The notes beneath the pieces are model-generated. The model was not told the DNA's origin, did not search any database, and saw only the letters and a list, made by a program, of their open reading frames with translations. This document shows, one piece after another, positions 20,062 through 32,346 of a DNA stretch of 64,000 bases. The stretch lies in NCBI GenBank assembly GCA_000004695.1, contig CM000151.3, positions 4,032,001 through 4,096,000 of the forward strand, given 5' to 3'. The position numbers were made by a program, and so were the translations under genes. Source of the stretch: Dictyostelium discoideum. Lineage: Eukaryota. Numbering within the stretch: position 1 is the stretch's first letter; the number at the start of each line of letters is the position of its first letter.

Positions 20062-21198
<1,137 letters not shown>

Positions 21199-21275
21199 TT
21201 ATATTTTATTTATTTTAGAGTTTTAAATTATGAAAAAAAAAAAAAAAAAATTTCATTTTATGATTTCAGAAACCT

Positions 21276-21309
<34 letters not shown>

Positions 21310-21682
21310 AAAATAAAAATAAAATCCCACAGTTTGAAAATTTCAATCAGTGGGTCTGAAAATTTTTGTCAATTTCAAATAACACTGAATCCATTTTTTT
21401 TTTTCAAAATTTTCTTTGAAATTTAATGGAGATTTTGAATATAAAAGTTTTATTTATTTTTTTTGGGAAAAAAAAGGTGTTTTTTTTTTTAGTAAAGTTA
21501 TTTGAAATTGATTGAAATTTTCAAACCATGGGTGGTTTCTCGCTTTAAAATTGGGATTTTATTTTTATTTTTTTTAATTTCATATTTTTTTTTTTTTTTT
21601 TTTGTTTTCTTACCCTATAAATAAATTTTTTTTTTTTTTTTTTTTTTTCATAATTTTAAACTCTAAAATAAATAAAATATAA

Positions 21683-22819
<1,137 letters not shown>

Positions 22820-23909
22820 ATTTAAAAAAATAATTTTGCAATGCGCATTCATAATATATGTATAGTAATAATAATAAAACCTTAATAAAATATAATTCAA
22901 ATCTTTAAATGGTTGTTGATCTTTATCCAATCACTTTAAAAAAAAAAAAAAAAAAAAAAATTCTATATAAAAATAATTATTTTAAATTTCATTTTTTATT
23001 TTTGTTTATTTATTTATTTAATTTTTAATATTAAAAGTTATTAAAAAAAAAAATATATGTTAATATTAATTTTTTTTTATTTTTTTTATTTTGCTTATTC
23101 TATTCGTGTTCCAGAAATAAAAAAATAAATAAAAAAAAAAAATAGAATGAAAAAAAATAATAAAATAAAAGTTTGGTGTATTTTGAAATTTGGAATTCAG
23201 AGGTTTATTTTTAAAAATTACAAAAACTAAAAAGAAAAATAAAAAGGAAAAATCTTATTAATCTGAAAATTACAGATTTGCCCCAATTTAAAGAAAAATT
23301 ATCCAAAATAATCAATCAACAACGATATCTTTTTGATAGATATTTATAAAAACTTTATCTTTTTTATTTTTTCAAAGTTGCGCAAAATAATAAAATTAAA
23401 ATAAATATAAAAACTGTAAAAAGAAAAAAAAAAGTGTAAAGGTTTATTAATTATTTAATTATTATTCACTTTTTGTAATTATTTTTTTATTTTGAAGAAT
23501 AATGATGGATATTTTATATAAAAAAAAAAAGAGATATGAAAAAATAATAATTATAAAAAAAAAAAAAAAAAATAGAATTTTAAAGTTTTAGTACAAATGG
23601 ATGATTTTTTTTTTTTTTTTTTTTTTTTCCTAAATAATTCAAGTAATAAACAAAGAATTGATATTCTGATGCCTAATTAAAAAAGAAATTTTTAAATAAA
23701 AAATGGGTTTTTTTTAAGTAAAGTTATTTGAAATTGATTGAAATTTTCAAACCATGGGTGGTTTTTCGCTTTAAAATTGGGATTTTATTTTTATTTTTTT
23801 ATATTTTTTATTTTTTATTTTTTTTTTTTTTGAGGTTTCTGAGATTATAAAATGAAATTTTTTTTTTTTTTTTAATTAATTCAAAAAATAATCAAATAAA
23901 TAAATATAA

Positions 23910-25046
<1,137 letters not shown>

Positions 25047-27891: not shown

Positions 27892-29463
27892 ATGTTATTA
27901 AAAATTTTAATTATTTATTTCATTTTTTTAAATTGGTTTGTTTTATCATTGGGACAATTAAAAAATTATAATGATAATTCAATTACATTAATAGTTGATC
28001 CATTTTCAAACAAAAATATAAACTTTTATAAAAGTGGAGAAAAATGTGGAGATACTCATAACAGATGTAAATCAATTAATGATGCAATTTTATATTTCAA
28101 TACCATCGCAATTGCAACCCCAAATAATAATAAATTAAGTTATCAACAATTAAATTTACAATTAGCAGATGGAATTTACTCAACTACAGAATATTCTTTT
28201 AATTTATTTGAATTTAATATAAATATAGAACCATTTAATAAAAATTCAAAAAAGGTAGTATTTGATGGTAGTAATAGTAGTAATAAAAATAATAATAATA
28301 ATGCATTATTTTATGTTGAACCAGTTTCAAATACTACCTCATTACCATTTAAAAAAAGAACAATTAATTCAGCCACCACTAGTATATTATCAAGTATATC
28401 AATTTCAGATATTACATTCATTTCATTCTCAAATACAATAATTAAAATTGATAATAGAAATGATGATAGTTATAATATAATTAATATAAATAATTGTGTT
28501 TTTAAAAATTTTACATCATCACCTCAAAAAATTGAAAAATATGGTTCACCAATTATTTATTTACAATCATCATCATCACCATCATCATTTTTAGAACAAA
28601 ACCAAACACAAAAACAACAATTAAATATTAATAACTCAGTTTTTAAATCTTCAAATTTATTTACGTCATTATGGAAAACTAGATTAATTCATATTGAAAA
28701 TACAAAATCATTAATGAATAATAATGTTTTTCATAATTTAAATGGTTTGAAAAGTTTATCAAATTTGATTTATTCAAGATTTAATTCAGATATTACAATT
28801 AATTCAAATCAATTTCATGATATAGTTACATATAATGGTTTAATTAATAGTGATAATTCAATGATTAAAATAATTAATTCAAATTTTAGATCAATCATTG
28901 GTAATAATTTTGGTTCAGTATTATATTTTACAACTTCATCAACTTTTCCATCATTTACATTTTTTATTGAAAATTGTAATTTTTGGAATTGCACTTCATT
29001 ATATAGTAGTGGTGTTATAAATGCTGTTGGTATAAATAATAATAATAATGATAATGATAAAAATAAAATAATTGATTGTAGTTTCTTTAATAATAAAGGA
29101 CCTGATTCAAGTATATTATCATGTCAAACAATTGATATAACAATTCAATATTCAAAATTAATATCAACCAATTCTCATGGTGGTACATTTTTAATTTACA
29201 CTTCAAATTTATTTGTTCAAAATAATTATATCCAAGATGAGATTAATGATGATTCAATCGTTGATTCTGGTAGAATTCAAACAATGGGTAAAGCAAATTT
29301 AACAATGTCTTCAAATAATTTTGGTAATGATTTAAATCATAAATTTAAATTTTCTTGTGATGATTCAATAATTAATTTACAAAATAGTCAAGATTTAATA
29401 CCATCATTTATTTGTAATCAATGTTTAGATTTTACAATTAATAATAATAATTCAATTTGTTAA
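27892..29463 (+). CDS. Hypothetical secreted Asn/Ser-rich protein (523 aa) with an N-terminal signal peptide
   Basis: The start MLLKILIIYFIFLNWFVLSLGQ is a signal peptide. The ORF is long with many N-x-S/T sites. No domain recognised. Confidence 0.5.
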   Translation: MLLKILIIYFIFLNWFVLSLGQLKNYNDNSITLIVDPFSNKNINFYKSGEKCGDTHNRCKSINDAILYFNTIAIATPNNNKLSYQQLNLQLADGIYSTTEYSFNLFEFNINIEPFNKNSKKVVFDGSNSSNKNNNNNALFYVEPVSNTTSLPFKKRTINSATTSILSSISISDITFISFSNTIIKIDNRNDDSYNIININNCVFKNFTSSPQKIEKYGSPIIYLQSSSSPSSFLEQNQTQKQQLNINNSVFKSSNLFTSLWKTRLIHIENTKSLMNNNVFHNLNGLKSLSNLIYSRFNSDITINSNQFHDIVTYNGLINSDNSMIKIINSNFRSIIGNNFGSVLYFTTSSTFPSFTFFIENCNFWNCTSLYSSGVINAVGINNNNNDNDKNKIIDCSFFNNKGPDSSILSCQTIDITIQYSKLISTNSHGGTFLIYTSNLFVQNNYIQDEINDDSIVDSGRIQTMGKANLTMSSNNFGNDLNHKFKFSCDDSIINLQNSQDLIPSFICNQCLDFTINNNNSIC

Positions 29464-29567: not shown

Positions 29568-30080
29568 CTATTTGTAAGCATTGAGAGTTCCAGTTTCAAT
29601 TACACTAATTACTCTATTTGAACGATTTGGAGTTTGATGATTCCAAGTTGAGTTTTTCATTTCTTTTGCTGCTTCAGCCCACTTTTTTTCTTCAATTAAT
29701 TTTAATGACATTTTAAAAGTTAAAACATTGTTTACACCCATTTGGAAAACCATATTGATTATAGCCATTTTACGAATATTATCTAAATTTTTATAAATTG
29801 TTGATAATGTTGGATTACTCTCAATTGATTTTGTGGCTACAGATAAATCCTTTTCAAATAAAGCTTCTGATTCTGAACTTGTAATTATTGGTTCATTTTT
29901 TGAATCCATTTTTACCTTATGACCAATTTTTTCTTCAAGGGATAAGATAGCAGCATTTCTTTCTTTAATTCTTGTAATTAAATGACCAATTCCAATTGTA
30001 TAATAACCTTCAGTATCTTTATACATTTCTAACTTTTCACCCTCATCATATTTTAACATATCTTTTATTGAAGAAACCAT
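29568..30080 (-). CDS. Phage T4-type lysozyme (glycoside hydrolase family 24), 170 aa; tandem copy 1
   Basis: [52 protein letters not shown] aligns to T4 lysozyme [52 protein letters not shown]. The catalytic Glu, Asp and Thr equivalents are conserved. Confidence 0.85.
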   Translation of the reverse strand: [170 protein letters not shown]

Positions 30081-30692
30081 TCTTTTTTAAAATTATTTAA
30101 TTAAAAAATATATTTTAATTGAATAATGGATTATATATATTTTTTTTTAATTTAAATAGGGAAAAAAAAAAATATATTATTTAAAAAAATAAGTTATTAA
30201 TTGAATTTTTAAGTAATTTATTATTATAAATGAATTATTTTTAAATTCATTTAATTGAATTATAAAAATTACAAATTTAAATTTTTTGCACCCACCCTTA
30301 ATTATAGTATTTTTAAATGCTGAATATTGTTTGTGTTATTAATGAATAATTGAATATAATAATTAAAATTGAATAATTATATTTTTTTTTTTTTTTTTTT
30401 TTCAAAAAAAAAAAAAAAAAAAAAAAAAATAAAAACAATATATTTAAATTTAAAATAAAATATTCCAATATTTATTTCTATTATATAAAAAAAATGAAAA
30501 AAAAAAAATTTAATAATTTGTTCAATAAAATATTGTATTTCCTCTGTAAATAATTATTTATTTATCTTTTTCATAAAATTAATTTTTTTTTTTTTTTTTT
30601 TTATTTTTCTTATAGAATTCTCCAAGTATAGGCTATTTACAGTTGAACCGATTATTTATTTATTAATATTAAACAAGTGTACCAGTTGTGAT

Positions 30693-31205
30693 CTATTTGT
30701 ATTCTTTGAGAGTTCCAGTTTCAAATACACTAATTACTCTATTTGAACGTTTTGGAGTTTGAGTATTCCAAGTTGAATTTTTTAATTCTATAGCAGCTTC
30801 AGCCCACTTTTTTTCTTCAATTAATTTAAGAGATTTTTTAAATTTTGAAACATTGCTAGCACCCATTTGAAAAACCATATTTGCCAAAGCCATCTTACGA
30901 TTTGAGTCCAAATTATTATAAATTGTTGATAGGGTTGAACTATTTTCAATGGAATTAATGGCAACTGATTTATCTTTTTCAAATAAACTCTCTGATTCTG
31001 AACTTGAAATTTCTGGTTCTTTTTTTGAATTCAATTTAACCGTATGGCCAATTTCACCTTCAAGAATTTTGATTGCTTCATTTTTATCTTTATTTTTGGT
31101 AATTAAATGTCCAATTCCAATAGTATAATTACCTTCAGTATCTTTATACATTTCTAACTTTTCACCTTCATCATACTTTAACATATCTTTTAATGAAGAA
31201 ACCAT
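30693..31205 (-). CDS. Phage T4-type lysozyme (GH24), 170 aa; tandem copy 2
   Basis: A paralog of the gene at 29568-30080 with the same length and about 70-75% identity. It carries [29 protein letters not shown] and [22 protein letters not shown]. The two copies have the same orientation and lie about 1.1 kb apart. Confidence 0.85.
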   Translation of the reverse strand: [170 protein letters not shown]

Positions 31206-31395
31206 TATTTTTTATTTATTTTTTTTATTTAAAATTTATTTATTTATATATATATATATAATTATTTAATTATTTCCAATTGTATGTGTGTATGTGTGTA
31301 ATATATTTTTTTTTTTTTCAATCCTATTAAATAATAACCCCACAAAAAAAATAAAAAATAAAAAAATTAAAAATAAAATAAAATTAAATTGTAAA

Positions 31396-31619
31396 TAGTA
31401 CAATTTAAGTGAATATAATAAACAACTTATTTTTTTAAGAATAAATTAAACAAATATAGAAATTTAATTCTTTTTCAAATTATTAAACTTTTTTTTTTTT
31501 TTTTTTTTATTTTAATAGTACAATTTAAGTAATTATAATAAACAACTTATTTTTTTAAGAATAAATTAAACAAATATAGAAATTTAATTCTTTTTCAAAT
31601 TATTAAACTTTTTTTTCTT
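31396..31619. repeat. Near-perfect tandem duplication of a roughly 100-bp AT-rich unit with a 120-bp period
   Basis: TAGTACAATTTAAGT(G/A)A(A)TATAATAAACAACTTATTTTTTTAAGAATAAATTAAACAAATATAGAAATTTAATTCTTTTTCAAATTATTAAACTTTTTTTT occurs at 31396-31497 and again at 31516-31617. Confidence 0.9.
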
Positions 31620-31638
31620 TTTATTTTTTTTTTTTATT

Positions 31639-32346
31639 TTAAGTAAAAGAAACTTTTAATTTTAATTCTTTTTCAAAAGTATCAAAGAATATATTCGAAT
31701 ATTTTTTAAAATGTGATTCTATTAAATCTCTATTTGATTTTAATTGATCAAATGTACAAAAATAACTAAAGATAACTCTATTATTTTCAGATTGATAGCC
31801 TATATCCATAATTTCATCGATTTGTGAATCTTGACTATCATTACCACTATTGACATTCTCTTTTAAAGTGAATGGATAATCTAATAATTTTGAGAGTTGA
31901 TTTTCTTTTAAATATAATTCAATTGAACCATTTGATAATGTCGATGAACTAATCAATTGAATAAACTCTTGATTGTATAATGGATGAAGCTTATTATAAA
32001 CCAATAAACAATTCTTGAATGAACAATTCGATGTCTCTAACTTGTCAATGATTTTATAATCTATAATTGATGAGAATCTGTTAAGTGGTTCTGATAAAAC
32101 ATTATCAATGAAACTTTGATTCAACGATATTAAACCATTGCCATCACCACCAATATGAAGATTTGAAAACTCGGTTATTAACGTTAAGAATTTTAGTCCC
32201 TTCAATGTGAACATTATTTCGCCAAAGAATAATAAATTCTCTACATTATATCCAATTGATGTTAATTCTTGTATTTGTTTTATACCTATACATTCTTTCC
32301 ACCATTTAATTTCATTTATTAAAATATTATTAATGATGTCATTCAT
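31639..32346 (-). CDS. Hypothetical protein, 235 aa
   Basis: A clean ORF whose composition is less AT-skewed than its flanks. No recognisable domain. Confidence 0.4.
   Translation of the reverse strand: MNDIINNILINEIKWWKECIGIKQIQELTSIGYNVENLLFFGEIMFTLKGLKFLTLITEFSNLHIGGDGNGLISLNQSFIDNVLSEPLNRFSSIIDYKIIDKLETSNCSFKNCLLVYNKLHPLYNQEFIQLISSSTLSNGSIELYLKENQLSKLLDYPFTLKENVNSGNDSQDSQIDEIMDIGYQSENNRVIFSYFCTFDQLKSNRDLIESHFKKYSNIFFDTFEKELKLKVSFT

What the first reader, a model, noticed from the sequence alone, without database searches (positions are those of the whole stretch)
29568..31205. Tandem pair of bacteriophage T4-type lysozyme (GH24) genes in a eukaryote
Both 170-aa proteins align end-to-end with phage T4 endolysin, including the catalytic Glu in DEG, the Asp in KDTEG and the Thr in YTIGIGH. 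They lack signal peptides and introns. GH24 T4-type lysozymes are phage and bacterial proteins. Their presence as a diverged tandem duplicate (about 70-75% identity) in an amoeba that eats bacteria suggests an old horizontal acquisition. It was then duplicated and sub-functionalised for bacteriolysis.
Basis: partly seen in the sequence, partly recalled or inferred. Interest (0 to 1): 0.6.

Follow-up and report, generated by a model that had tools for sequence, protein, structure and literature searches.

The report
Known Dictyostelium T4-type lysozyme gene pair
The two genes are real, intact copies of a phage T4-type cell-wall-cutting enzyme in the chromosome of the social amoeba Dictyostelium discoideum, but they are already catalogued (lyT4-1 and lyT4-2, "Probable T4-type lysozyme 1 and 2"), so this confirms a known case of a phage gene adopted by a bacteria-eating cell.

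Summary
Two intron-less 170-aa ORFs lie head-to-tail on the minus strand at 29568-30080 and 30693-31205. They are 76% identical to each other. Each matches phage T4 lysozyme end to end (E about 1e-46) and keeps the catalytic Glu, Asp and Thr. An AlphaFold model superposes on T4 lysozyme at 1.0 A.

They are not new. Their sequences are exactly UniProt LYST1_DICDI and LYST2_DICDI (D. discoideum AX4, chromosome 2, annotated as GH24). Published work reports lyT4-2 mRNA induced on E. coli and its protein detected by mass spectrometry.

- The gene sits at one syntenic locus in D. discoideum, D. citrinum, D. dimigraforme and D. firmibasis.
- The Dictyostelium sequences form one clade (100% bootstrap) with a shared 6-residue insertion.
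- The next relatives (about 50% identity) are all phage or prophage lysozymes of Enterobacterales and Aeromonas.
- No D. purpureum or other eukaryotic relative was found in protein databases.
- The duplication came after the acquisition and is absent from three of the assemblies examined.
- Both copies are under purifying selection (dN/dS 0.14-0.5) and have host-like codon usage.

Phage-to-amoeba transfer is well supported. Sub-functionalisation is untested. The lack of a signal peptide leaves the site of action open.

The parts
29568..30080 (-). lyT4-1 coding sequence: 170 aa, single exon, 'Probable T4-type lysozyme 1' (LYST1_DICDI, Q556F2, XP_643993.1)
   Evidence: ORF. Exact sequence match to the named database entry. 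PF00959 at 48.9 bits. T4 lysozyme at E = 1e-46 over residues 5-170. AlphaFold pLDDT 95.2, and TM 0.93/0.97 with rmsd 1.0 A to T4 lysozyme.
30693..31205 (-). lyT4-2 coding sequence: 170 aa, single exon, 'Probable T4-type lysozyme 2' (LYST2_DICDI, Q86AA1, XP_643994.1)
   Evidence: ORF. Exact match to the database entry. PF00959 at 44.4 bits. 76% identical to lyT4-1. mRNA reported up 2-5-fold on E. coli (PMC2443395). Protein detected by MS and up in 5-h developed cells (PMC6830349).
30081..30692 (-). 612-bp AT-rich spacer between the copies. It holds the 3' flank of lyT4-2 and the presumed promoter and leader of lyT4-1. Features: a G-rich box (GGGTGGGTGC on the minus strand, about 30288-30299) and a T20-C-A26 homopolymer pair at 30383-30430.
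   Evidence: Sequence read directly. Between the two copies, similarity ends 7 nt past the stop codon, so the duplicated unit is essentially the CDS, with 1125-bp spacing. Promoter function is inferred, not tested.
31206..31638 (-). Upstream region of lyT4-2. It contains a CA-rich element (minus strand TACACACATACACACATACA, about 31281-31301) and two tandem 120-nt copies at 31394-31633.
   Evidence: Sequence. The tandem copies are 96% identical. A regulatory role is inferred only.

Best explanation
These are the two known GH24 'T4-type' lysozyme genes of Dictyostelium discoideum, lyT4-1 and lyT4-2.

Origin (inferred from distribution, synteny and phylogeny). A single endolysin gene of the phage T4 gpe type was taken up from a phage or prophage of Gram-negative prey. 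It inserted at one chromosomal site in an ancestor of the D. discoideum / D. citrinum / D. dimigraforme / D. firmibasis group. It then adapted to host codon usage and gained a 6-residue loop insertion. Later it was duplicated in tandem in the D. discoideum / D. citrinum lineage.

Enzyme (inferred from conserved residues and fold). Both products are catalytically competent inverting muramidases. They should cut the MurNAc-beta-1,4-GlcNAc bond of peptidoglycan with Glu13 as the general acid, and with Asp22 and Thr28 positioning the attacking water, as in T4 lysozyme.

Role (weakest step). They most likely help degrade the cell walls of ingested, mainly Gram-negative, bacteria during feeding and early starvation. 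The proteins have no signal peptide, so how they meet peptidoglycan is not known. The options are an unconventional route into phagolysosomes or autophagosomes, or action in the cytosol.
For: Identity:
- Exact match to LYST1_DICDI and LYST2_DICDI, annotated as GH24 proteins of D. discoideum AX4.

Family, catalytic residues and fold:
- PF00959 above cut-off for both ORFs.
- The first ORF aligns end to end with T4 lysozyme at E = 1e-46 and 46-48% identity.
- Glu, Asp and Thr are conserved, along with Q113, W146, R153 and R156 (T4 Q105, W138, R145, R148).
- The model has pLDDT 95 and superposes on T4L at rmsd 1.0 A.

Genuine chromosomal genes:
- The same flanking genes occur in four other assemblies: a MAPKK1_Int gene, a gene of about 250 aa, the lysozyme(s), an RMD5/CTLH gene and actins. 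A gene of about 520 aa is also called between the lysozyme and RMD5/CTLH in three of the four, but not in D. firmibasis.

Single acquisition from phage:
- The Dictyostelium sequences form a clade with 100% bootstrap and share a 6-residue insertion.
- An exhaustive HMMER search gives one Dictyostelium representative at 308 bits, then drops to 174 bits.
- 1649 phage records match, all below 60% identity, mostly T4-like phages of Escherichia, Klebsiella and Aeromonas.
- The closest 'bacterial' copy that I examined lies in a T7-like prophage. The closest metagenomic copy lies beside genes matching the Antiholin and ValRS_modifier Pfam families, which I read as T4-like.
- No eukaryote other than Dictyostelium appears among the hits, apart from crystallisation fusion constructs.

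Selection and amelioration:
- dN/dS is 0.14-0.17 between orthologues and 0.33 between the paralogues. GC3 is 0.16-0.22.

Expression:
- lyT4-2 mRNA was reported up 2-5-fold on exposure to E. coli, while aly genes fell (PMC2443395).
- LyT4-2 protein was detected by MS and was higher at 5 h of development (PMC6830349).
Against: - No enzyme assay, localisation or knock-out of either gene was found in the searchable literature.
- There is no signal peptide and no upstream exon. This argues against classical delivery to phagosomes.
- Net charge is far lower than that of T4 lysozyme: +2 in D. discoideum, down to -9 in D. citrinum, against +8 for T4L. Surface properties have therefore changed.
- The sister group of the Dictyostelium clade is unresolved (34% bootstrap, NJ only), so the donor cannot be named.
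- Absence from D. purpureum rests on protein databases, not a genome-wide tblastn. Its RMD5 locus is not syntenic, so there is no clean 'empty site'.
Confidence: 0.8

Rival explanations
1. The enzymes work in the cytosol rather than in phagosomes. In this reading a signal-less phage endolysin has been co-opted as a cell-autonomous defence. It would act against bacteria that escape or damage the vacuole, or would clear peptidoglycan fragments that leak into the cytosol. It might also reach bacteria through xenophagy.
For: - The N-terminus aligns residue for residue with that of T4 lysozyme, with no leader, in all five species.
- There is no upstream exon.
- Other eukaryotic GH24 lysozymes that are described, such as the one in Goniomonas, do carry signal peptides (PMC6260743).
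- There are no cysteines in most copies, so no dependence on disulfides, which is compatible with a reducing cytosol.
Against: - No localisation data exist.
- lyT4-2 is induced by harmless E. coli food bacteria, which fits digestion better than cytosolic defence.
- No dedicated signal-peptide predictor was available, and unconventional targeting cannot be excluded.
Confidence: 0.3
2. The genes have mainly a developmental or housekeeping role not connected with feeding. One possibility is removing residual bacteria or peptidoglycan in aggregates. Another is that one copy is drifting toward loss of function.
For: - LyT4-2 protein rises in 5-h cAMP-pulsed cells in two strains.
- A CA-rich element lies upstream of lyT4-2. 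That such elements mark developmental promoters in Dictyostelium is recalled from memory.
- The lyT4-1 clade has a long stem branch (0.124), and this copy is absent from one D. citrinum assembly.
Against: - Both copies are under purifying selection. lyT4-1 orthologues have dN/dS 0.14, the lowest value seen.
- Catalytic residues are intact in all copies.
- lyT4-2 is induced on bacteria.
Confidence: 0.15
3. The genes are not a horizontal transfer. They would be either bacterial or phage contamination of the assembly, or an ancient eukaryotic GH24 inherited vertically and lost elsewhere.
For: - The backbone of the tree is poorly supported, and the rooting is by midpoint only.
- GH24 domains occur sporadically in fungi, bivalves and a cryptomonad.
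Against: Against contamination:
- The genes lie inside an 8.48-Mb chromosome between eukaryotic genes.
- They are 27-30% GC with GC3 of 0.16-0.22.
- They are syntenic in five independent assemblies.

Against vertical descent:
- The proteins are 46-53% identical to phage gpe-type lysozymes over the full length.
- No intermediate relative exists among 1.84 billion cluster representatives (308 bits falling to 174 bits).
- No hit was found in D. purpureum, Acytostelium, Tieghemostelium or other Amoebozoa, although their proteins are in the database. Those species were found with a flanking gene.
Confidence: 0.03

Closest known systems
Bacteriophage T4 endolysin gpe (T4 lysozyme), CAZy family GH24, Pfam PF00959
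   Same: - Same length class and collinear from the first to the last residue, at 46-48% identity.
- Catalytic Glu11, Asp20 and Thr26 equivalents are present.
- Same two-lobed fold in the model, at rmsd 1.0 A.
   Different: - Encoded in a eukaryotic chromosome with eukaryotic neighbours. There are no holin, antiholin or spanin genes nearby.
- A 6-residue insertion ([10 protein letters not shown] region) extends a beta-hairpin in the N-terminal lobe.
- Extreme AT codon usage.
Bivalve phage-type (GH24) lysozymes acquired by HGT (Ren et al. 2017, PMC5303276)
   Same: A phage GH24 lysozyme co-opted by a eukaryote that deals with bacteria, followed by gene duplication. In bivalves antibacterial activity has been shown.
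   Different: - The bivalve genes gained introns and underwent fusions. The Dictyostelium genes remain single-exon and unfused.
- The acquisitions are independent. No bivalve sequence appears among the close relatives.
Other Dictyostelium lysozyme families: AlyA-D/AlyL, Entamoeba-type and C-type LyC (Muller et al. 2005, as cited in PMC5890168 and PMC2443395)
   Same: Part of the amoeba's reported repertoire of 15-22 lysozyme genes of four types. lyT4-2 and lyC2 were the two lysozyme genes induced on E. coli.
   Different: - Unrelated folds and families.
- AlyA has been purified and shown to be active, whereas the T4-type proteins are uncharacterised.
- That the Aly proteins enter the secretory or lysosomal pathway is my recollection. 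The T4-type proteins have no leader.
Signal-peptide-bearing GH24 of other protists and fungi (e.g. Goniomonas avonlea, dermatophytes)
   Same: A GH24 domain in bacterivorous or soil eukaryotes.
   Different: The Goniomonas protein is predicted to be secreted. The Dictyostelium pair lacks any leader and is much closer to T4 gpe itself.

Membership tests
GH24 / Pfam PF00959 T4-type lysozyme | Significant match to the family profile above the curated threshold | tested here: met
   PF00959 at 48.9 and 44.4 bits against a cut-off of 22.3. PHROG 430 and PHROG 7 (lysozyme / endolysin) at E = 1e-32 and 1e-20.
GH24 / Pfam PF00959 T4-type lysozyme | Full-length collinear homology to T4 gpe | tested here: met
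   Residues 5-170 of the first ORF align with T4L residues 3-162 at E = 1e-44 to 1e-46. Identity is 46-48%.
GH24 / Pfam PF00959 T4-type lysozyme | Catalytic Glu11, Asp20 and Thr26 equivalents | tested here: met
   E13 and D22 are invariant across 14 aligned sequences. T28 is present in both window proteins and is Ser in the D. citrinum copies.
GH24 / Pfam PF00959 T4-type lysozyme | Two-lobed alpha/beta T4-lysozyme fold | tested here: met
   AlphaFold model with pLDDT 95.2. Foldseek against the PDB gives TM 0.93/0.97 and rmsd 1.0 A to T4 lysozyme. This is a prediction only.
GH24 / Pfam PF00959 T4-type lysozyme | Muramidase (EC 3.2.1.17) activity on peptidoglycan | not testable with these tools
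   No assay of either protein was found in the searchable literature.
Phage lysis cassette / prophage remnant | Endolysin accompanied by holin, spanin or other phage genes | tested here: not met
   The neighbours are eukaryotic genes: actins, an RMD5/CTLH gene, a MAPKK1_Int gene and Asn-rich Dictyostelium ORFs. By contrast, real phage contexts were seen in L006 and L007.
Secreted / lysosomal eukaryotic lysozymes | N-terminal signal peptide | tested here: not met
   The N-terminus is hydrophilic and collinear with the T4L N-terminus. There is no upstream coding exon. Caveat: no dedicated signal-peptide predictor was available.
Horizontally transferred gene (phage to eukaryote) | Stable integration in the host chromosome, conserved across species | tested here: met
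   Same syntenic locus in D. discoideum, two D. citrinum assemblies, D. dimigraforme and D. firmibasis.
Horizontally transferred gene (phage to eukaryote) | Restricted distribution in the recipient lineage, with nearest relatives in the donor group | tested here: met
   Only Dictyostelium of the discoideum subgroup were found. All other close hits are phage, prophage or metagenomic.
Horizontally transferred gene (phage to eukaryote) | Well-supported nesting inside a specific donor clade | tested here: inconclusive
   Dictyostelium monophyly has 100% support, but the sister relation to a T7-like-prophage group has only 34% bootstrap, in a midpoint-rooted NJ tree.

The most novel reading that the evidence does not exclude
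A phage endolysin kept without any targeting signal has been turned into a cytosolic, or unconventionally delivered, antibacterial effector of an amoeba. The two paralogues would have diverged in target or timing. This would be a protist counterpart of cytosolic cell-autonomous immunity, built from a phage lysis gene.
Probability: 0.25. Interest if true: 0.55.

Novelty: already known. Interest (0 to 1): 0.22.

Why it matters
The genes themselves are catalogued, so this is not a discovery.

They remain a clean and little-studied example of a predator of bacteria borrowing a phage weapon. The case has three features:
- one identifiable insertion site;
- a datable tandem duplication;
- an unexplained lack of a secretion signal.

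They are the lineage-restricted distribution, the single syntenic locus, the shared loop insertion, the purifying selection on both copies, and the phage or prophage identity of all near relatives.

Tried and rejected
1. Empty-site test. I searched for the D. purpureum orthologue of the flanking RMD5/CTLH gene and fetched its locus. The neighbourhood is not syntenic and has no lysozyme, so the test is uninformative rather than confirmatory.

2. Lost second copy. I looked for a degraded second copy downstream of the single gene in D. citrinum assembly GCA_054859325.1 (L003), and in the D. dimigraforme and D. firmibasis loci. tblastn at E <= 10 found none.

3. NCBIfam. It gave only a sub-threshold match to a gene-transfer-agent endolysin (20.7 bits against a cut-off of 315), which I disregarded.

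4. Pfam on the two flanking ORFs (523 aa and 235 aa) gave nothing significant.

5. First bootstrap run. An attempt with about 130 sequences timed out. I repeated it with 54 sequences.

6. Literature.
- Muller et al. 2005 (JBC) and Nasser et al. 2013 are not held.
- My guessed dictyBase gene IDs did not hit the lysozymes; DDB_G0275123 turned out to be alyA.
- No open-access paper explicitly analysing the phage origin of the Dictyostelium T4-type genes was found.
- They are not among the 16-18 bacterial HGT candidates of the genome papers, as far as the part of Table 2 shown goes.

7. Contamination and vertical-inheritance readings were considered and rejected (see the rival explanations).

Full report
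**What is in the sequence**

Two ORFs of 170 codons lie head to tail on the minus strand at 29568..30080 and 30693..31205, separated by 612 bp of AT-rich DNA. Their products are 76% identical (129/170) without gaps. The coding DNA is 83% identical. Similarity between the two copies ends 7 nt beyond the stop codon, so the duplicated unit is essentially the coding sequence, repeated at 1125-bp spacing. The window is 13-40% GC and holds three 376-aa ORFs at 20062-25046. Actin genes of that length are called at the matching positions of the related loci.

**What the proteins are**

- Both pass Pfam PF00959 (Phage_lysozyme) at twice the curated cut-off.
- Against the PDB, residues 5-170 of the first ORF align with residues 3-162 of phage T4 lysozyme at E = 1e-44 to 1e-46.
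- In a 14-sequence alignment the Glu and Asp are invariant. So are Q113, W146, R153 and R156 (T4 Q105, W138, R145, R148). The Thr is replaced by Ser only in the D. citrinum copies.
- An AlphaFold model of the first protein has mean pLDDT 95.2. It superposes on T4 lysozyme with TM 0.93/0.97 and rmsd 1.0 A.
- The only structural novelty is a 6-residue insertion (around [10 protein letters not shown]). It lengthens a beta-hairpin in the N-terminal lobe.

**They are already known**

Both translated sequences are exact matches to database entries: XP_643993.1 / Q556F2 'Probable T4-type lysozyme 1' (LYST1_DICDI) and XP_643994.1 / Q86AA1 'Probable T4-type lysozyme 2' (LYST2_DICDI). Both are annotated 'glycoside hydrolase family 24 protein [Dictyostelium discoideum AX4]' on an 8,484,197-bp record.

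- Reviews state that phage-type lysozymes were recognised in the genome by Muller et al. 2005 (PMC5890168).
- Sillo et al. 2008 name lyT4-2 (DDB0167824). They report it as one of two lysozyme genes induced 2-5-fold on exposure to E. coli while the aly genes fall, and they suggest a role in E. coli peptidoglycan hydrolysis (PMC2443395).
- LyT4-2 protein was detected by mass spectrometry and was higher in 5-h cAMP-pulsed cells than in vegetative cells in two strains (PMC6830349).
- I found no enzymology, localisation or knock-out of either gene.

**Origin**

*Distribution.* A word-indexed search of 5.8 billion proteins found close relatives only in D. discoideum, D. cf. discoideum, D. citrinum and D. 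dimigraforme. A profile search added D. firmibasis. After those, identity drops to about 50% and the hits are phage, prophage or metagenomic.

*Exhaustive search.* An HMMER scan of 1.84 billion cluster representatives gave one Dictyostelium representative at 308 bits. The next hit scored 174 bits and is a T4 lysozyme fusion construct. Only 34 clusters reached E <= 1e-30. Ten of the best short hits were looked up. Those with names come from Klebsiella and Aeromonas, and the rest are unnamed metagenomic sequences.

*Phage context.* In the phage collection 1649 records match, all below 60% identity. They are dominated by phages of Escherichia, Klebsiella and Aeromonas with genomes of about 165-183 kb in the listed records. 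A 'chromosomal' Enterobacter roggenkampii copy lies inside a T7-like prophage, between genes for endonuclease I, a T7-type RNA polymerase, a head-tail connector and a T7 capsid protein. The closest metagenomic copy lies beside genes matching the Antiholin and ValRS_modifier Pfam families, which I read as T4-like.

*Absence elsewhere.* D. purpureum, Acytostelium and Tieghemostelium proteins are in the database, because they were recovered with a flanking gene. None has a T4-type lysozyme hit.

*Tree.* In a neighbour-joining tree (Kimura distances, 200 bootstraps, 54 sequences) the Dictyostelium sequences are monophyletic at 100%. Their sister group is unresolved at 34%.

**Chromosomal context**

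The lysozyme gene occupies the same place in five assemblies. The conserved order is a MAPKK1_Int gene, then a gene of about 250 aa, then the lysozyme(s), then an RMD5/CTLH gene, then actins. A gene of about 520 aa is also called between the lysozyme and RMD5/CTLH in D. citrinum and D. dimigraforme, but not in D. firmibasis. This excludes contamination and argues for a single insertion.

- D. firmibasis and D. dimigraforme have one copy.
- One D. citrinum assembly has both copies, and they are orthologous to lyT4-2 and lyT4-1.
- The other D. citrinum assembly has only a lyT4-2-like copy, with no detectable remnant of the second.

The tree places the duplication after the split from D. dimigraforme and before the D. 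discoideum / D. citrinum split. The lyT4-1 clade has 100% support and a long stem branch. The D. purpureum RMD5 locus is not syntenic and has no lysozyme, so it offers no clean empty site.

**Selection and amelioration**

Coding GC is 27-30% and GC3 is 0.16-0.22, which is fully host-like. Pairwise dN/dS (NG86) is 0.14 for lyT4-1 orthologues, 0.17 for lyT4-2 orthologues, 0.33 between the D. discoideum paralogues and at most 0.53 overall. Both copies are therefore maintained by purifying selection.

The D. discoideum paralogues are 95% identical in the first 90 nt and about 91% in the last 90 nt. That exceeds the values for the orthologues in the same segments (87% and about 81%). Their dS (0.43) is also below the orthologue dS (0.61-0.77). 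This hints at gene conversion at the gene ends. I did not test it further.

**Mechanism**

The conserved residues and fold support an inverting muramidase like T4 lysozyme. This is inferred, not assayed. The biological role most consistent with the published induction on E. coli is breakdown of Gram-negative cell walls during feeding.

The unsolved point is access to the substrate. The N-terminus is collinear with that of T4 lysozyme, is hydrophilic and has no leader in any species. The upstream DNA contains no plausible exon. In the phage, a holin releases the enzyme. In the amoeba, no equivalent is evident. The alternatives are:
- an unconventional route into phagolysosomes or autophagosomes;
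- action in the cytosol on escaped bacteria or peptidoglycan fragments;
- a role in early development.

The surface has therefore been remodelled.

**Verdict**

The genes are named and annotated, and the 'phage-type' nature has been recognised since 2005.

The acquisition appears restricted to one subgroup of group-4 Dictyostelium rather than ancient in Amoebozoa, and the duplication is younger still. Sub-functionalisation is untested.

Novelty: already known. Interest is low to moderate, mainly for the open question of where a leaderless endolysin acts in a eukaryotic cell.

Noticed in passing
window 31394-31633: There are two tandem 120-nt copies, 96% identical, in the spacer between lyT4-2 and the upstream 235-aa ORF (31639..32346, minus strand). 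This is a recent local duplication of non-coding DNA.
   Followed up: partly
window 30383-30430: A T20-C-A26 homopolymer pair, a perfect AT hairpin-like inverted repeat, lies in the spacer between the two lysozyme genes.
   Followed up: no
window about 31281-31301 and about 30288-30299: A CA-rich element (TACACACATACACACATACA on the gene strand) lies about 90 bp upstream of lyT4-2. A G-rich box (GGGTGGGTGC) lies about 210 bp upstream of lyT4-1. From memory, such elements resemble Dictyostelium developmental promoter motifs. This would fit the reported rise of LyT4-2 protein at 5 h of development.
   Followed up: no
window 29568-30080 vs 30693-31205: The two D. discoideum paralogues are more alike at their 5' and 3' ends (95% and about 91% nt identity) than the orthologues are. 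Their dS is also lower than the orthologue dS. This suggests partial gene conversion.
   Followed up: partly
L003 10001-11596 (D. citrinum GCA_054859325.1): This D. citrinum assembly has only the lyT4-2-like copy, followed by a 1.08-kb gap with no detectable lysozyme remnant. The other D. citrinum assembly (L002) has both copies. This is either presence/absence variation of lyT4-1 or a mislabelled strain.
   Followed up: partly
window 27892-29463 (+): A 523-aa Asn-rich ORF with a hydrophobic, signal-like N-terminus (MLLKILIIYFIFLNWFVLSLG) and no Pfam match lies directly downstream of lyT4-1. Genes of similar size are called at this position in D. citrinum and D. dimigraforme, but not in D. firmibasis.
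   Followed up: partly
window 20062-25046: There are three 376-aa ORFs, at 20062..21192 (-), 21689..22819 (+) and 23916..25046 (+), with raised GC. Actin genes of that length are called at the matching positions of the related loci.
   Followed up: no
L006 (Enterobacter roggenkampii CP167923.1, 1442826-1459314): This is an integrated T7-like prophage in a bacterial chromosome. It has a T7-type RNA polymerase, endonuclease I, a connector, a capsid protein and tube/nozzle proteins. It carries a T4-type GH24 lysozyme where, from memory, T7 itself uses an amidase. This group was the weakly supported nearest neighbour of the Dictyostelium clade.
   Followed up: no
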